Notes under the pieces: model-generated
Told to the model about the DNA's origin: nothing
The model's input: the letters and a program-made list of their open reading frames with translations, nothing else
The model's database searches: none
Shown here: piece by piece, positions 2,409 to 47,996 of the stretch
How positions within the stretch are numbered: the first letter of the stretch is position 1
Layout: each line of letters opens with the position of its first letter
Made by a program: the position numbers and the translations under genes
NCBI GenBank assembly: GCA_045631075.1
Contig: JAZQUC010000017.1
Span: 1-51,114 of the forward strand
Direction: 5' to 3'
Length of the DNA: 51,114 nt
Source of the DNA: Candidatus Fimenecus sp.
Lineage (GTDB): Bacteria; Bacillota; Clostridia; Oscillospirales; Acutalibacteraceae

Positions 2409-2410
2409 TA

Positions 2411-2443
2411 TGTAAGGGACGATGTTCACATCGTCCTTTTTTA
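2411..2443 (+). terminator. Intrinsic terminator of the LytTR operon (also a GTAGGGG-family hairpin)
   Basis: TGTAAGGGACGATG-TTCA-CATCGTCC followed by TTTTTT. Confidence 0.8.
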
Positions 2444-2447
2444 TATA

Positions 2448-2538
2448 AAATTATAATTTATCGGGGAAAACAATTCGTAGGGGTCGGCGTCCTCGACGAC
2501 CCGTTTTCAATATAATCATTCAAATTATAATTTGTCGG
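2448..2538 (+). repeat. ~90-bp composite direct repeat, copy B (partner at 1211-1299)
   Basis: Same architecture as copy A, including an internal CGTAGGGG hairpin at 2475-2503. Confidence 0.8.
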
Positions 2539-2673
2539 GGAAAAAGCGCCCCTTGTCAAAGGGGAGAGGGCCACGAAGTGGCGAGGGGATTCTTGTTGTT
2601 GTATAATGAATCCCTCCACCGCTAACGCGGTCCCACTCCCTTTAACAAGGGAGGCTTATATCTCCCCGACAAA
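2531..2673. repeat. 143-bp imperfect palindrome made of two inverted copies of a GC-rich two-hairpin element
   Basis: The left arm TTTGTCGGGGA..CCCCTTGTCAAAGGGG..GCCACGAAGTGGC..GAGGGGATTC matches the reverse complement of the right arm GAATCCCTCC..ACCGCTAACGCGGT..CCCTTTAACAAGGGAGG..TCCCCGACAAA. Confidence 0.8.
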
Positions 2674-2746
2674 CTTCAATTTATCGAAATGTTTTTCTTT
2701 CTGACCGAAGGGAAAATCTCGTGAACCAACAAAATAAAACTTAATA

Positions 2747-2775
2747 TTGAATAATTGCAAAATATATGGTAAACT
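2747..2775 (+). promoter_or_regulatory. Candidate orphan promoter (TTGAAT-17-TAAACT)
   Basis: TTGAAT 2747-2752, 17-nt spacer, TAAACT 2770-2775. No credible ORF follows it. Confidence 0.4.
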
Positions 2776-2781
2776 TATAAT

Positions 2782-2995
2782 TGCCAAACCAATTGAATAT
2801 AAAAATGAGGGCGATTTCTATTTTTTTATAGGGATATTTTACTCGTATTTGCATAATCATAATCGTGTTATGAATTTGATAAAAACGCAAATTCTATCAA
2901 TACGATTGTGGTTAATTGCCCTTTATATTGAATTGGTTTGGCGACTATCGGAGTTTGCGTTTTTTGTGCGGCTGCTTCGGTGGTCGCACTTTTTG
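2782..2995 (+). ncRNA. Candidate ~210-nt structured small RNA of unknown family
   Basis: A 20-23 bp closing stem pairs 2781/2784-2803 with 2922-2941/2944, with one G.G mismatch. Inner helices are 2809-2816/2914-2921 and 2856-2865/2903-2912; the latter has three G.U pairs valid only on the + strand. An apical hairpin is GAATTTG..CAAATTC. It ends in a 10-bp UUCG-capped terminator at 2966-2989 plus TTTTT. Confidence 0.4.
2966..2995 (+). terminator. Strong intrinsic terminator with UUCG tetraloop, not preceded by any CDS
   Basis: GTGCGGCTGC-TTCG-GTGGTCGCAC followed by TTTTTG. It sits 190 bp upstream of the next start codon. Confidence 0.7.
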
Positions 2996-3112
2996 TATTT
3001 GTGGAGGGGATTTTTGTGAGATAATTTTATTCATAAAATTACTTGTCAAGATGTTTTATGAAATATTTTTTTGCAATTTTAACAAAAAAATCTGCAATAT
3101 TGCATTTTCTAT

Positions 3113-3140
3113 TGTAATTTATATAAAAATGCAATATACT
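3113..3140 (+). promoter_or_regulatory. Candidate promoter of the LRR surface protein gene (TTGTAA-16-TATACT)
   Basis: TTGTAA 3113-3118 and TATACT 3135-3140. AGGAGG RBS at 3171-3176 lies before ATG 3185. Confidence 0.4.
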
Positions 3141-3184
3141 TATTTTGAGAAAAATAATTTTTAAATATAAAGGAGGAAATTATT

Positions 3185-6100
3185 ATGAAAAAAACAAATA
3201 AAATCTTAGCAATTATCCTCGCAATACTTATGGTTGTATCCATTACACCAATCACAGCAAGTGCTGCTATTACGGGTACTGCCGGTAAAGACATCACATG
3301 GGAGTTGGATAGCTCTACAGGTACACTAACATTTTCAGGTTCAGGTGAAATGTATGGTTACTATGGTGATGGTAGTACTCCACCATGGGACTATGAGTCT
3401 AAAGTTAAAACAGTTATTATAGAAGAAGGAATTACAACTATTGGTTCACGCGCATTTATAGGATTTTATAATCTTACAAATGTGACAATTCCCAATAGTG
3501 TAACAATAATCGACGATAATGCTTTTTATAAATGTACTAAACTTACCAATATAATAATTCCTGAAGGTGTAAGACAAATTGGTGAATATGCATTTTCAAA
3601 CTGTTCTAATCTTACAAGTATAACTTTACCTGAAAGTTTATTGTGGATAGACACAGATGCATTTGCAAAATGTACCGCCCTGACAGATGTTAATTATTTA
3701 GGTACATTAGAAGATTGGTACGGTATTGGTATAGCTGAAGGAAATGGTAATCTTTATGTTGTTGACATTACCTCTCTCCCAAGCAAAAATTTTACATGGG
3801 AGTTCGATGAAGAAACAGCAACATTAACTATTACAGGTAGCGGTGAGATAGTTGATTTTCGTTATGAAGATGATTGGGGCGGTTATTATTGTGGCACTCG
3901 TCCATGGGAAGACATAATAGAAAATGATGTTAAGCATGTGGTTATCAACGAGGGTATAACAAGTATCGGTGCGTATGCCTTTGCTTATTCTAATTCCCTT
4001 GAAACAGTAACTATGAGTAGTGTAAAGACTATCAGTACTGATGCATTTTGTAGTTGTGTTAATCTTAAGGCTGTAACCACAAGTAATAGCTTAAAGGTTA
4101 TTGGAGACGATGCTTTTTATAAATGTGATAAATTAACTTATATTTATTATTCAGGCACACAAAATGAATGGGACCATGTTAAAATAGGAGACCATTGGAA
4201 CGATGAAATGGATACTGTAAAGGTTTATCCAAGTGATTATGTAGTCTATTCTGACTATGGTAATGGTGTTATATTAATTGCAGATGATACAATAACATGG
4301 GTCTTTGATGCCAATTCATATACTTTAACAGTTTCCGGTGAAGGCGATACTTTTGATGATTACATGGTTGACGAAAAGTTTCATTCTAAAACTTGTTATA
4401 AGTTCTTCGGATATAGAGGTTGGGATTATTACAAATACGATACCAAAAAAATTGTTGTAGATAACGGTATAAACTATATTGGTAATAACTCATTTCGTTT
4501 CTTCCTTAATGCTACAGATGTTGTAATTCCTTTAAGTGTAACAGAAATCGGAAAGATGGCATTCAGAACATGCGATTCTATTACTGATGTTTATTATGCA
4601 GGTACAGAAGTACAGTGGAAAAATATTGTAATAGGTACAGATAATGACGCACTTTTAAACGCAAATATTCATTATAACTATGTTGAATGTGAACATAACT
4701 ACGAAACAACAGTGGTAACAGAGCCAACTTGCATAAATCGTGGTTATACAACACACATCTGTTCAAAATGTAATGAAAGCTATGTTGACAGTTTTCTTGA
4801 ATTTACTGAATGTCCTGACTATGTTGAGGTTATATGGCCACCAACATGCACAGAACAAGGATACATAGCACATGAATGTCCTATTTGTCATACGGGATAT
4901 GTTGAAAAATATCTTGACCCGACTCACAAATATGAACAAACTTCTGTAACACAGCCAACTTGTACAACACAAGGCTATACAACATATACATGTACTGCAT
5001 GTGGCAAGGTTGCTAAAGATGACTATACTTCTTCATTAGGTCACGATTATGGTGATGCAATAGAAATATCTGCTCCGACTTGTACTGAAAAAGGCTATAC
5101 AAAACAGATATGTGCAAGATGTGAATATGAATTTATATCCAACAAGGTTCCAGCTTTGGGACACGATTATATTGAAGTGTCAACAATAGCTCCGACATGT
5201 ACTGAACAGGGTTATACAACATATGTGTGTTCAGTATGTGGTGCTGAAAGCATGGATAATTATATTGAAGCAACAGGACATAATTGTGAAGAATGGACAA
5301 CGGTTGTTGAGCCACAATGTGGTGTTAAAGGAAAAGAAAAGGCTGTTTGTACAGTATGTGAAGAAGAAATAGAACAGGATATTTCAAGCCTTAGTCACGA
5401 TTATGGTGAATTAGAGATCGACTATGATGCAACTTGTACAGAAACGGGTCGAATGGCTCAAAAATGTTCAAGATGTGAAAGCAAAACAGGTTTTAAAACA
5501 ATCCCTGCAAAAGGTCATACTTATGGTGAGTGGGTAGTTATAACACCTGCAACATGTCAGACATATGGACTGATGAGACGCCAATGCTTGTATTGCGATA
5601 CCAACGAGAGTGTTTCTGCAATAGGTGAACACGATTACTCAATTGAACATAATGTTGTTGAAGCAACTTGTATTACAGATGGAAGCAAAACAGTTGAATG
5701 TTCATTATGCGGAGATACAAAAAATGAAGTGACACCTGCAACAGGGCACAGTTACACAACAGAAATCACAACTCCTGCAACTCATACACAAACAGGCATT
5801 GAAACATTCACTTGTGCTTGTGGTGATACATACACAGAAGTAATTGAAAAACTTGAAAAACATAATTATGAATCAGTTGTAACAGCACCTACTTGCACAG
5901 AACAAGGTTACACAACATACACCTGCGGATGTGGTAACAGCTATGTTGTTGACTATATAGATGCAACAGGTCATATTTCTGCGGATGCAGTTGAAGAAAA
6001 TTATGTTGCTCCAACTTGTACAGAAACTGGTAGCAAAGATGTGGTTGTTTACTGCTCAATATGTGATGCGGAAATTAGCAGAGAAACAAAAACGATTGAA

Positions 6101-6427
6101 GAAGCTGAACATACAGTTGTTACTTATGAAAAGATAACTCTTGCACCGACTTGTACGGAAAATGGAGCGAAAGAAATTGCACATTGTTGTACTGAATGTA
6201 ACACAGTTATCAGCAAAGAAAATGTAACAATTGATGCAACAGGTCACGCAGACAATGACAATGACGGATACTGCGATGCAGATAACGAGATTCTTGACCC
6301 ATCAGTTGAATGTGAATGTAATTGCCATAAAACAGGCGTTTCAAATTTCTTCTTCAAGCTGATTCTTTTCTTCCAGAAGATTTTTGGCTCAAATAATGTC
6401 TGTGATTGTGGTGTATCACATTACTAA
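3185..6427 (+). CDS. Large secreted protein: signal peptide, BspA-type leucine-rich repeats, 13 Cys/His mini-repeats, Cys-flanked C-terminal motif
   Basis: 1080 aa. The N-terminus MKKTNKILAIILAILMVVSITPITASA is signal-like. Repeated I..AF..C..L..V.IP..V..I motifs are typical of BspA-like LRRs. The C-terminal half is an array of PTCTEQGYTTYTC..CG units. Confidence 0.85.
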   Translation: MKKTNKILAIILAILMVVSITPITASAAITGTAGKDITWELDSSTGTLTFSGSGEMYGYYGDGSTPPWDYESKVKTVIIEEGITTIGSRAFIGFYNLTNVTIPNSVTIIDDNAFYKCTKLTNIIIPEGVRQIGEYAFSNCSNLTSITLPESLLWIDTDAFAKCTALTDVNYLGTLEDWYGIGIAEGNGNLYVVDITSLPSKNFTWEFDEETATLTITGSGEIVDFRYEDDWGGYYCGTRPWEDIIENDVKHVVINEGITSIGAYAFAYSNSLETVTMSSVKTISTDAFCSCVNLKAVTTSNSLKVIGDDAFYKCDKLTYIYYSGTQNEWDHVKIGDHWNDEMDTVKVYPSDYVVYSDYGNGVILIADDTITWVFDANSYTLTVSGEGDTFDDYMVDEKFHSKTCYKFFGYRGWDYYKYDTKKIVVDNGINYIGNNSFRFFLNATDVVIPLSVTEIGKMAFRTCDSITDVYYAGTEVQWKNIVIGTDNDALLNANIHYNYVECEHNYETTVVTEPTCINRGYTTHICSKCNESYVDSFLEFTECPDYVEVIWPPTCTEQGYIAHECPICHTGYVEKYLDPTHKYEQTSVTQPTCTTQGYTTYTCTACGKVAKDDYTSSLGHDYGDAIEISAPTCTEKGYTKQICARCEYEFISNKVPALGHDYIEVSTIAPTCTEQGYTTYVCSVCGAESMDNYIEATGHNCEEWTTVVEPQCGVKGKEKAVCTVCEEEIEQDISSLSHDYGELEIDYDATCTETGRMAQKCSRCESKTGFKTIPAKGHTYGEWVVITPATCQTYGLMRRQCLYCDTNESVSAIGEHDYSIEHNVVEATCITDGSKTVECSLCGDTKNEVTPATGHSYTTEITTPATHTQTGIETFTCACGDTYTEVIEKLEKHNYESVVTAPTCTEQGYTTYTCGCGNSYVVDYIDATGHISADAVEENYVAPTCTETGSKDVVVYCSICDAEISRETKTIEEAEHTVVTYEKITLAPTCTENGAKEIAHCCTECNTVISKENVTIDATGHADNDNDGYCDADNEILDPSVECECNCHKTGVSNFFFKLILFFQKIFGSNNVCDCGVSHY
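4682..6250 (+). repeat. Coding tandem array of 13 units of ~38-42 aa (H-x-Y ... P-T-C-T-E-x-G-Y ... C-x2-C)
   Basis: Units are centred on TCINRGY, TCTEQGY (x3), TCTTQGY, TCTEKGY, QCGVKGK, TCTETGR, TCQTYGL, TCITDGS, THTQTGI, TCTETGS and TCTENGA. The DNA copies differ mainly at synonymous positions. Confidence 0.85.
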
Positions 6428-6448
6428 TTTTAATACGCAAACTTTTTC

Positions 6449-6502
6449 GGCTCCCTCTGACGAGGGAGCTGTCATTTTTGCAAAAAAATGACTGAGGGAG
6501 AG
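6449..6502 (+). repeat. GC-rich two-hairpin element (variant copy) just downstream of the LRR gene stop
   Basis: GGCTCCCTC-TGAC-GAGGGAGC, then GTCATTTTT-GCA-AAAAATGAC, then TGAGGGAGAG. Same architecture as 2531-2673 and 20266-20315. Confidence 0.65.
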
Positions 6503-21517: not shown

Positions 21518-21609
21518 TGGCGGAGATGAAGAGATTTGAACTCTTGCGCCGCTATTCACGACCTACCGCATTTCGAGTGCGGACCCTTCAACCACTTGGG
21601 TACATCTCC
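21518..21609 (-). tRNA. tRNA-Ser (anticodon CGA) with encoded CCA
   Basis: The reverse complement folds as a cloverleaf: acceptor GGAGATG/CATCTCC, anticodon arm CCGCA-CTCGAAA-TGCGG, long variable arm, T arm AAGAG-TTCAAAT-CTCTT, and 3' GCCA. Confidence 0.9.
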
Positions 21610-43441: not shown

Positions 43442-43770
43442 ATGAGTAAATTGGGCAGTTGCGTAAGTGTTTACTTGTGAGGAAAGTCCGAGCATCATAC
43501 AGCAGGGTAACGGCTAACAGCCGCCGAGGGTGACCTTAGGGAAAGTGCATAGAGAATAACCGCCGTTTTTACGGTAAGGGTGGAAAGGCGAGGTAAGAGC
43601 TCACCAGCGTTGCAGAGATGTAACGGCTGAGCAAACCCTACCCGATGCAACATCGACTGGAGTTGTCAGCTGGGCAGATACTCCGAAAGATGGCTTCAGG
43701 TATGTGGCAACACATATCGCAGATAGATAATTGCCTTAAACGACAGAACTCGGCTTACAGATTTACTCAT
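43442..43770 (+). ncRNA. rnpB: RNase P RNA (bacterial; class-A-like features)
   Basis: The P4 strands GAGGAAAGTCCG (43479-43490) and ACAGAACTCGGCTTAC are present. GGTAAGGGTGGAAAGGCGAGGTAAGAGCTCACC resembles the class A P10-P12 region. P1 is formed by TGAGTAAAT / ATTTACTCA. Confidence 0.9.
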
Positions 43771-43775
43771 TTTTA

Positions 43776-47825: not shown

Positions 47826-47861
47826 TTTGTCAGGTGTATAATGTAATCAAGCCAAGTAAAT

Positions 47862-47955
47862 ATAGTTATGGGTGCTGACGGGTAAGTCGGCTGAGATTGA
47901 GGGTAATCCACCTCTGACCATTGAACCTGATACGGATAATGCCGGCGTAGGAAAT
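47862..47955 (+). promoter_or_regulatory. TPP (THI-box) riboswitch aptamer
   Basis: GGGTGCTG...GGCTGAGA...ACC..TGAACCTGATACGGATAATGCCGGCGTAGGAA matches the THI-element consensus. It lies upstream of a thiamine transporter gene. Confidence 0.9.
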
Positions 47956-47957
47956 TT

Positions 47958-47996
47958 TCATTCAGCCTTGCGGTATTCCTTGGCTGAATTTTTTAT
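47958..47996 (+). terminator. Expression-platform terminator of the TPP riboswitch
   Basis: ATTCAGCC ... GGCTGAAT stem followed by TTTTTT, just upstream of the thiT RBS (GGAGG). Confidence 0.8.

What the first reader, a model, noticed from the sequence alone, without database searches (positions are those of the whole stretch)
4682..6250. Thirteen tandem Cys/His mini-domains in an extracellular LRR protein
The C-terminal half of the 1080-aa secreted protein is an array of 13 units of about 40 aa. The pattern is G-H-x-Y ... (A/P)-P-T-C-T-E-x-G-Y-x4-C-x2-C-G. Each unit therefore supplies one His and three Cys with zinc-ribbon-like CxxC spacing. That is unusual for an extracytoplasmic repeat. 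The most similar units (TCTEQGYTTYTC) differ mostly at synonymous sites in the DNA. This suggests an old array maintained by selection rather than a recent amplification. One unit (THTQTGIETFTCACG) has lost the first Cys. I do not recognise this repeat as a named domain family.
Basis: partly seen in the sequence, partly recalled or inferred. Interest (0 to 1): 0.65.

Follow-up and report, generated by a model that had tools for sequence, protein, structure and literature searches.

The report
Metal-stapled Cys3-His stalk repeats
A secreted surface protein of an uncultured gut Clostridia bacterium carries its leucine-rich binding head on 13 small beta-sheet modules that are most likely pinned end to end by a cysteine/histidine metal (probably zinc) site at each junction. 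The module is very common, has no database entry, and has been described only in one IgA protease in 2025.

Summary
ORF 3185-6427 encodes a 1080-aa protein: signal peptide, three BspA-type LRR blocks, then 13 units of 36-45 aa carrying His, Cys and a CxxC (CxC in two units). The DNA copies have diverged (no tandem repeat found; identical residues often use different codons).

The Cys/His are almost certainly metal ligands, but not as 13 self-contained zinc ribbons. AlphaFold2 (pLDDT 95.5) gives three equal-length strands per unit, which places C1 at the opposite end from H/C2/C3. Statistics on about 6,800 units in 257 proteins support junction sites made of C1(i), H(i+1), C2(i+1) and C3(i+1). 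The three lines are strand-length coupling, H-x-H compensation when C1 is lost (OR 148 and 63), and C1 loss at uncapped array ends (OR 142).

There is no Pfam, NCBIfam or Foldseek-PDB match. A profile does hit the Thomasclavelia ramosa IgA protease exactly at ZBD1/ZBD2 (=CTD2/CTD4), described in 2025 as zinc-linked "periscope" rods from models and SAXS.

The family has 72,034 clusters and occurs in 55% of sampled genomes of the same order. This scan had already found the module in other genomes. Verdict: a new member of a barely described kind. A C-terminal Cys/His-flanked amphipathic tail probably anchors the protein.

The parts
3185..6427 (+). Gene for the 1080-aa secreted LRR/stalk protein (P0001), apparently monocistronic
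   Evidence: ORF list and translation. Terminator-like hairpins lie at 2966-2989 upstream and at 6448-6471, 21 nt after the stop.
3185..3265 (+). Signal peptide, aa 1-27 (MKKTNKILAIILAILMVVSITPITASA)
   Evidence: Read directly from the sequence. Nearly the same leader occurs on paralogues and homologues of the same architecture.
3266..4669 (+). Head: three BspA-type leucine-rich-repeat blocks (aa ~28-495)
   Evidence: Pfam LRR_5 PF13306, E 1.4e-53, 3 stretches; LRR_8 is marginal. NCBIfam gives partial similarity to the HupY/LrrG LRR adhesin, far below its cut-off.
4688..4696 (+). N-terminal cap C502-E-H504: an extra ligand that stands in for the missing upstream C1 in the first site (C502, H504, C526, C529)
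   Evidence: The [CH]-x-[CH] motif is present at 145/354 true array starts versus 149/5124 internal units (OR 23, p 7e-103).
4688..6199 (+). Array of 13 three-stranded units (aa 502-1005) with predicted junction sites 0-12. Each site is C1(i) + H(i+1) + C2(i+1) + C3(i+1). Substitutions: C543 for His in site 1 and H867 for C1 in site 10.
   Evidence: Unit positions. Site list. AF2 of aa 618-750: pLDDT 95.5, strands at aa 637-643, 649-655, 662-668, 676-682, 688-694, 716-722. Junction logic.
6245..6283 (+). C-terminal half-unit cap, aa 1021-1033 (H-ADNDNDGY-C-DA-D). It supplies H1021, C1030 and probably D1033 to complete the last site with C990, and it contains a DxDxDG loop.
   Evidence: Array ends in homologues carry H-x4-8-G-x-C-x2-C. 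In this protein the second Cys is Asp, while paralogues have C-D-x-C. Assigning D1033 as a ligand is inference.
6311..6424 (+). C-terminal tail, aa 1043-1080: C-E-C-N-C-H, a 16-residue amphipathic helix (aa 1052-1067, nt 6338-6385), then C-D-C-G-V-S-H-Y at the C-terminus. Probable envelope anchor.
   Evidence: The same tail is on 40 of 257 family proteins and 9 ORFs of the own genome. AF2 of aa 969-1080: pLDDT 86.7, helix at model residues 84-99. No Pfam or Foldseek match. Other family members end instead in SLH, dockerin or a TM helix plus basic tail.
6448..6471 (+). Terminator-like hairpin after the gene
   Evidence: 10-bp stem, 7 GC pairs, T-rich tail.

Best explanation
The C-terminal half of this secreted protein is a rigid stalk. 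Each ~40-aa unit is a flat three-stranded up-and-down beta-sheet with little or no hydrophobic core. Consecutive sheets are joined end to end by a four-ligand metal site, most likely structural Zn2+. Each site is built from C1 at the far hairpin tip of unit i, the His in the linker that starts unit i+1, and the C2-x2-C3 knuckle at the near hairpin tip of unit i+1. The window protein is predicted to hold 14 such sites. The first is completed by an extra Cys (C502-x-H504). The last is completed by a half-unit cap (H1021, C1030, probably D1033). The rod lies between an N-terminal BspA-type LRR head and a C-terminal Cys/His-flanked amphipathic tail that probably holds the protein on the envelope. 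It therefore acts as a spacer ('periscope') that projects the binding head tens of nanometres from the cell. Shown here: the sequence pattern, the predicted secondary structure, the ligand statistics and the homology to the IgA-protease ZBD modules. Inferred: the 3D clustering of ligands, the identity of the metal, the anchoring and the stalk function.
For: 1. AF2 on aa 618-750 with 77 homologous triple units gives pLDDT 95.5. The model is all-beta with three ~7-residue strands per unit, and the strands separate H from C1, C1 from C2, and C3 from the next H.
2. The three inter-ligand spacings co-vary within a unit. H->C1 of 11 goes with C1->C2 of 10 in 692/693 cases, and 15 goes with 12 in 239/245. 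C1->C2 of 10 goes with C3->H of 13/14 in 1237/1293, and 12 goes with 16 in 229/255. Spacings do not co-vary between neighbouring units. So H, C2 and C3 lie at one end of a sheet, and C1 and the next H lie at the other.
3. When C1 of unit i-1 is not Cys/His, the next linker carries H-x-H or H-x-C. This holds in 62/75 cases versus 60/1921 (OR 148, p 6e-70). It was replicated on 137 other proteins: 33/53 versus 82/3216 (OR 63, p 9e-37).
4. Terminal units followed by no His or knuckle have lost C1 but keep C2/C3: 45/48 versus 82/2322. Replicated: 51/64 versus 117/4361 (OR 142, p 9e-64).
5. Array starts are enriched in [CH]-x-[CH]. Array ends carry an H...C-x2-C half unit.
6. Cys-to-His swaps occur at ligand positions, here C543 and H867.
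7. No DsbA, DsbB, VKOR or Thioredoxin_4 was found in the own genome.
8. A profile of the repeats hits PDB 9qa6 (T. ramosa IgA protease) at chain residues 852-978 and 1090-1142, E 1.4e-6. These are the published ZBD1 and ZBD2. There, AF3 models put tetrahedral Cys/His sites at the interfaces of three-stranded sheets (PMC12237041), and SAXS of CTD2 fits a fully extended rod (PMC12415215).
9. Partner domains in the family are surface modules: SLH, dockerin, cohesin, LRR_5, Big_2, subtilase. Unit number varies from 9 to 16 among proteins of the same architecture.
Against: I had no access to model coordinates, so ligand-to-ligand distances were not measured. The junction geometry rests on secondary structure plus sequence statistics. 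Only 41% of true array starts carry the extra ligand, so three-ligand end sites must be tolerated. No metal has been measured in any member; even for the IgA protease the ZBD sites are 'putative'. The homology to ZBD1/ZBD2 is modest (E 1.4e-6), and Foldseek did not retrieve any PDB chain. The anchoring role of the tail and the passive-spacer role are inferred from architecture only. The genome is 82% complete, so the absence of Dsb genes is weak evidence.
Confidence: 0.72

Rival explanations
1. Each 40-aa unit is an autonomous zinc-ribbon-like mini-domain whose own His and three Cys bind one zinc, or C1, C2, C3 of one unit plus the following His do so (a zf-BED-like reading).
For: The count is one His and three Cys per unit, with a CxxCG knuckle typical of zinc ribbons. 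Homologues accumulate weak Pfam hits to zf-BED and several zinc-ribbon families.
Against: AF2 places 7-residue extended strands between C1 and C2 and between C3 and the next His. Compensation for a lost C1 appears in the downstream linker, not in the unit's own upstream His region. Uncapped last units lose C1 yet keep C2/C3. Arrays begin with a His (often [CH]-x-H) and end with an extra H...CxxC half unit; both would be orphans under the C1-C2-C3-Hnext reading. The zinc-finger Pfam hits have no stretch that passes on its own.
Confidence: 0.08
2. The cysteines form disulfide bonds (a disulfide knot or inter-unit disulfides), and the His is structural for another reason.
For: Cys-rich extracellular repeats in eukaryotes (EGF, TSR) are disulfide-stabilised. 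The protein is exported.
Against: There are three Cys per unit. The His is invariant. Cys and His interchange at ligand positions, and a lost Cys is compensated by His, which a disulfide cannot tolerate. No DsbA/DsbB/VKOR was detected in the genome. The relatives are strict gut anaerobes. The IgA protease with 24 Cys shows no disulfides and needs reducing agent to stay monodisperse (PMC12237041).
Confidence: 0.04
3. The sites bind a metal, but the array is more than a passive spacer. It could be an adhesive or ligand-binding surface, a metal (Zn/Fe) reservoir or sensor, or a metal- or redox-switchable rod whose stiffness changes with zinc availability or oxygen.
For: There are fourteen thiolate-rich sites per molecule and at least 103 units in at least 17 ORFs of this genome. 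The PNAS authors leave other roles for CTD2/CTD4 open. Cys3His sites can also hold Fe or Co.
Against: Only the ligands, the Gly and a few turn residues are conserved, and surface positions are free to vary. Unit number varies among close relatives. The module is combined with many unrelated heads and anchors. This is the pattern of stalk domains. In the IgA protease the ZBDs are dispensable for catalysis.
Confidence: 0.14

Closest known systems
ZBD1/ZBD2 (= CTD2/CTD4) of the Thomasclavelia ramosa M64 IgA protease (PLoS Pathog 2025, PMC12237041; PNAS 2025, PMC12415215; sequence in PDB 9qa6)
   Same: Homologous by profile search: E 1.4e-6, with both matched stretches falling on ZBD1 and ZBD2. 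Both have three-stranded up-and-down sheets placed end to end, putative tetrahedral Cys/His sites at the interfaces, no disulfides, an extended rod by SAXS, and a proposed 'periscope' role. The IgA-protease units show the rules found here: an H-T-H start and C1-less 'PATATTAG' units.
   Different: The protease has only 3+2 sheets, interrupted by a beta-barrel. Its sites are mostly His2Cys2, and it has an LPXTG-type anchor. The window protein has 13 uninterrupted units with canonical Cys3His sites, an LRR head and a different C-terminal tail. The published modules are known only from predicted models and SAXS; neither metal content nor an atomic structure has been determined.
G5-E repeat rods of Staphylococcus SasG / Aap (fibrillar-adhesin or 'periscope' stalks)
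   Same: Both work alike: monomeric, elongated rods of single-layer beta-sheets without a normal hydrophobic core. Both project an N-terminal binding domain from the wall and have a variable repeat number (comparison drawn in PMC12415215; unit-number variation).
   Different: There is no sequence or Pfam relationship. In SasG/Aap zinc mediates dimerisation through His/acidic surface sites and does not link modules within the chain. SasG/Aap have no Cys.
Classical zinc ribbons (TFIIS / TFIIB / rubredoxin-like knuckle folds)
   Same: Both have a CxxCG zinc knuckle at a beta-hairpin tip and a three-stranded antiparallel sheet. The PLoS Pathog authors note a distant resemblance of ZBD subdomain I to the TFIIS C-terminal domain.
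   Different: A zinc ribbon has two CxxC knuckles within one domain, and they meet at one end of the sheet. Here each unit has one CxxC knuckle and a single Cys at the opposite end, and the site is completed by the neighbouring unit. No zinc-ribbon Pfam model reaches significance on this protein. The protein is extracellular and its units are tandem.
BspA-type LRR surface proteins (Pfam LRR_5)
   Same: The N-terminal half is a typical member (PF13306, E 1.4e-53).
   Different: That family describes only the head, not the Cys/His array or the tail.

Membership tests
ZBD/CTD2-CTD4 'metal-associated periscope' module of T. ramosa IgA protease | Sequence homology to ZBD1 (UniProt 879-1008) and ZBD2 (1101-1171) | tested here: met
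   hmmsearch of profile A1 against PDB sequences hits 9qa6_A at E 1.4e-6. The stretches are 852-978 and 1090-1142 of a 1145-residue chain. With an offset of about +27 (my inference from the construct limits), these map onto ZBD1 and ZBD2.
ZBD/CTD2-CTD4 'metal-associated periscope' module of T. ramosa IgA protease | Subdomains are three-stranded antiparallel sheets with up-and-down connectivity | tested here: met
   AF2 with pLDDT 95.5. DSSP shows three ~7-residue strands per unit, and 9-10-residue strands in the long unit 13.
ZBD/CTD2-CTD4 'metal-associated periscope' module of T. ramosa IgA protease | Four Cys/His ligands contributed by adjacent sheets (site at the interface) | tested here: met
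   Supported by sequence logic: strand-length coupling, downstream H-x-H compensation, C1 loss at uncapped ends, and start and end caps.
ZBD/CTD2-CTD4 'metal-associated periscope' module of T. ramosa IgA protease | Ligand atoms within bonding distance in 3D (tetrahedral geometry) | not testable with these tools
   Structure prediction returns pLDDT and DSSP only, and no coordinate file was available in the Python box.
ZBD/CTD2-CTD4 'metal-associated periscope' module of T. ramosa IgA protease | Bound zinc and an extended rod in solution | not testable with these tools
   Needs ICP-MS, anomalous scattering or SAXS on recombinant protein. For the protease, only SAXS of CTD2 has been published.
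Classical zinc ribbon (Pfam zinc-ribbon families) | Two CxxC (or CxxH) knuckles within one small domain; match to a curated model | tested here: not met
   There is one CxxC per unit plus a lone Cys 9-11 residues upstream across a full strand. No zinc-ribbon family appears for P0001 at E <= 1. Hits in homologues have 0 independently significant stretches.
BspA-type LRR protein (PF13306 LRR_5) | Match above Pfam gathering score | tested here: met
   180.5 bits against a cut-off of 27.7, in 3 stretches.
G5 / E-repeat stalk (SasG, Aap) | Match to G5 domain models | tested here: not met
   No G5 hit in the Pfam scan at E <= 1. The resemblance is functional only.
Disulfide-stabilised Cys-rich repeat (EGF/TSR-like) | Even number of invariant Cys that tolerate no His substitution | tested here: not met
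   There are three Cys plus one His per unit, with Cys/His interchange and His compensation.

The most novel reading that the evidence does not exclude
The module is a general device of strictly anaerobic gut and rumen Clostridia. It would build extracellular rods of any length from core-less beta-sheets stapled by inter-module Cys3His zinc sites, in place of the disulfides or hydrophobic cores used elsewhere. Simple sequence rules (junction sites, H-x-H compensation, start and end caps) would predict metal stoichiometry from sequence. In this protein the rod would be coupled to a second uncatalogued element, a Cys/His-clamped amphipathic C-terminal tail, as a new kind of envelope anchor. If true, tens of thousands of surface proteins would form a large, unrecognised extracellular zinc pool whose integrity depends on anoxia and zinc supply.
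Probability: 0.45. Interest if true: 0.65.

Novelty: new member of a known kind. Interest (0 to 1): 0.45.

Why it matters
Thiolate-based structural zinc sites are regarded as intracellular. Here they appear outside the cell, in tandem, in a family of at least 72,000 sequence clusters. The family occurs in about 55% of sampled genomes of the host's order. It has no Pfam or NCBIfam model and no experimental structure. A curated model would annotate large parts of many giant 'hypothetical' surface proteins of the gut and rumen microbiota. The junction rule gives testable metal stoichiometries. The dependence on reduced cysteines and zinc suggests that the surface architecture of these anaerobes could be sensitive to oxygen and to host zinc sequestration. 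This particular gene is one more ordinary member; the value lies in the family.

Tried and rejected
- Tandem Repeats Finder on the DNA found no array, so this is not a recent amplification.
- Pfam and NCBIfam on the whole protein gave no hit in the repeat half.
- phmmer of the repeat half against PDB sequences gave only a chance hit to CENP-E. The later profile search did find the IgA protease.
- Foldseek against PDB returned nothing better than E 0.12 and TM <= 0.33, for the three-unit model and for the C-terminal model.
- Weak zf-BED, Zn-ribbon, DUF7408 and DUF6400 Pfam hits in homologues were examined and rejected as summed sub-threshold matches to the CxxC...H pattern.
- Literature searches by motif (PTCTE) and by keywords found nothing until the IgA-protease lead from earlier scan notes.
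- The search for related loci with the alignment failed because no conserved 7-10-column stretch exists. The single-protein scan found only close relatives.
- I looked for model coordinates to measure distances and none are exposed.
- The Pearson correlation of C1->C2 with C3->H spacing was low (0.21) because of mis-parsed outliers. The contingency tables show the coupling.
- The disulfide hypothesis and the intra-unit zinc-ribbon hypothesis were considered and rejected (see rivals).
- An Rfam scan found nothing near the gene.
Full report
**What is there.** The window holds one long ORF at 3185-6427 (+) encoding 1080 aa. It begins with a typical Sec signal peptide. Three BspA-type LRR blocks follow (Pfam LRR_5, E 1.4e-53). 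From aa ~500 there is an array of 13 units of 36-45 aa. The gene looks monocistronic, with terminator-like hairpins at 2966-2989 and 6448-6471. Eleven units read H-x11-15-C-x9-11-C-x2-C. Units 10 and 11 have C-x-C. Unit 10 has His in place of the first Cys, and the 'His' before unit 2 is a Cys (C543). No tandem repeat is detectable in the DNA. In the most similar pair of unit cores, 13 of 15 residues are identical but 9 of those 13 use different codons. The observation, including the 'old array under selection' remark, is therefore confirmed with small corrections.

**How common it is.** A search with the repeat half returned 7,889 significant proteins out of a capped 8,000 candidates. Their partner domains are SLH, dockerin, cohesin, LRR_5, Big_2, subtilase, transglutaminase-like and others, all of them surface modules.
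- A profile of 77 three-unit segments found 72,034 representative clusters at E <= 1e-3 and 19,085 at E <= 1e-30. Some proteins reach 7,583 aa.
- In genome samples it matched 110 of 200 other genomes of the same order (72 of 121 genera, a count that includes the window's own genome) but only 7 of 300 across the phylum.
- The closest relatives are Candidatus Fimenecus and other uncultured gut Clostridia MAGs.
- The window's own 2.1-Mb, 82%-complete genome has at least 17 ORFs with 103 units.
- Neither Pfam nor NCBIfam has a model for it. The zinc-finger 'hits' listed for homologues are sums of sub-threshold matches.

**Structure.** AlphaFold2 on aa 618-750 with 77 homologous segments gave mean pLDDT 95.5. 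The model is all-beta with three ~7-residue strands per unit. One strand lies between His and C1, one between C1 and C2, and one between C3 and the next His. I could not obtain coordinates, so the next step is inference. In a three-stranded up-and-down sheet, H, C2 and C3 sit at one end, and C1 and the next His sit at the other. The four residues that can meet are C1(i), H(i+1), C2(i+1) and C3(i+1), across the junction of two sheets.

**Tests of the junction model from sequence alone.**
- *Spacings.* In 1,807 unit pairs from 120 homologues the three spacings co-vary tightly within a unit. They do not co-vary between the last strand of one unit and the first strand of the next.
- *Compensation.* When C1 of a unit is not Cys/His, the next linker has H-x-H or H-x-C instead of G-H. 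This holds in 62/75 cases versus 60/1921 (OR 148, p 6e-70).
- *Uncapped ends.* Units at array ends followed by neither His nor a knuckle have lost C1 in 45/48 cases while keeping C2 and C3.
- *Replication.* Both effects replicated in an independent set of 137 proteins and 4,428 units (OR 63, p 9e-37; OR 142, p 9e-64).
- *Caps.* True array starts carry an extra ligand ([CH]-x-[CH]) in 41% of cases versus 2.9% of internal units. The window protein has C502-E-H504. Many arrays end in a half unit H-x4-8-G-x-C-x2-C. The window protein has H1021...C1030-D-A-D1033.

Loss of a Cys is compensated by a His, and ligand positions swap between Cys and His. This points to a four-coordinate metal site and argues against disulfides. 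No DsbA, DsbB, VKOR or Thioredoxin_4 gene was found in the (incomplete) genome. The 14 predicted sites of this protein are listed.

**Comparison with what is known.** Single-sequence and fold searches of the PDB found nothing. Notes from earlier windows of this scan pointed to the Thomasclavelia ramosa IgA protease, and I checked that lead.
- The repeat profile hits PDB 9qa6 (IgA protease) at E 1.4e-6, in exactly two regions.
- Those regions correspond to ZBD1/ZBD2 of PMC12237041 and CTD2/CTD4 of PMC12415215.
- Those papers, from AF2/AF3 models and SAXS, describe three-stranded sheets placed end to end. Putative tetrahedral Cys/His zinc sites lie at the interfaces, there are no disulfides, and the rod is extended.
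- The protease units obey the rules found here, with an H-T-H start and C1-less units.

The window's array is therefore a member of a kind first described in 2025 for one protein. No solved structure, metal analysis or curated family exists. It works like the SasG/Aap G5-E stalks but is unrelated to them. It borrows the CxxCG knuckle of zinc ribbons but fails the defining two-knuckle, one-domain feature.

**Function.** The order is signal peptide, LRR head, rod, C-terminal tail. Unit number varies from 9 to 16 among proteins of identical architecture. Surface positions of the units are free to vary. All of this fits a passive, length-adjustable stalk.

The last 38 residues are C-E-C-N-C-H, a 16-residue amphipathic helix, then C-D-C-G-V-S-H-Y (AF2 pLDDT 86.7 for aa 969-1080). 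This is a separate conserved module on 40 of 257 family proteins and 9 ORFs of this genome, including ORFs in which the unit profile found no repeats. Other family members carry SLH, dockerin or TM-helix anchors at the same position. I therefore read the tail as an envelope anchor. This is inference, and the same reading appears in an earlier scan note.

**Verdict.** The feature is real, ancient and selected. The metal-binding idea is supported, but the sites are inter-unit junction sites and not 13 autonomous zinc ribbons. The module is uncatalogued but not unpublished, and this scan has met it repeatedly in other genomes. I rate it a new member of a known (barely characterised) kind, of moderate interest. 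Most of the value lies in the family-wide rules and in the missing database model.

Noticed in passing
window 6311-6424 (aa 1043-1080): Conserved C-terminal tail: C-x-[CH]-x-C-H-K-x-G, a 16-aa amphipathic helix (FFxKIxxFFxKLFG type), then N-K-x-C-x-C-G-x-x-H-Y at the very C-terminus. It is found on 40 of 257 family proteins and 9 ORFs of the own genome, some carrying no units that the repeat profile detected. It has no Pfam or Foldseek match. It is probably an envelope anchor with one or two Cys/His metal sites clamping the helix.
   Followed up: partly
window 6245-6283 (aa 1021-1033): The array's end cap contains a D-x-D-x-D-G-x-C-D loop that resembles EF-hand, dockerin or thrombospondin-type-3 calcium-binding loops. 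In this protein the second Cys of the cap (C-D-x-C in paralogues) is Asp.
   Followed up: no
window 3185-3265 and paralogues on contigs C220, C112, C23: The signal peptide MKK(T/L)NKILAIILAILMV(V/I)SI(T/I)PITASA is almost identical across paralogues and across homologues from other MAGs. It is much more conserved than the mature N-termini.
   Followed up: no
own genome, contig C50, ORF of 1275 aa (26 units): The largest array in this genome sits in an ORF whose N-terminus does not look like a signal peptide (…MRKIPDEFQRDDVNGEHL…). This may be a membrane-tethered protein with a cytoplasmic N-terminal domain, as an earlier scan note described for an XRE-type regulator elsewhere.
   Followed up: no
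window 2409-3184: A 777-nt gene-free stretch lies upstream of the gene. It has three terminator-like hairpins (2414-2439, 2636-2653, 2966-2989). No Rfam family matched.
   Followed up: partly
window 43443-43773, 47858-47970, 21521-21609: RNase P RNA class A (255 bits), a TPP riboswitch (58 bits) and one tRNA. All are ordinary.
   Followed up: no
homologues P0014, P0028, P0015, P0043, P0078 etc.: Variant units in which the CxxC knuckle is replaced by C-x-x-x-G-C, C-x-N-D-x-x-H or similar (for example CTRTGCTASE, CKNDSKHTY). These suggest further sub-types of the junction site.
   Followed up: no
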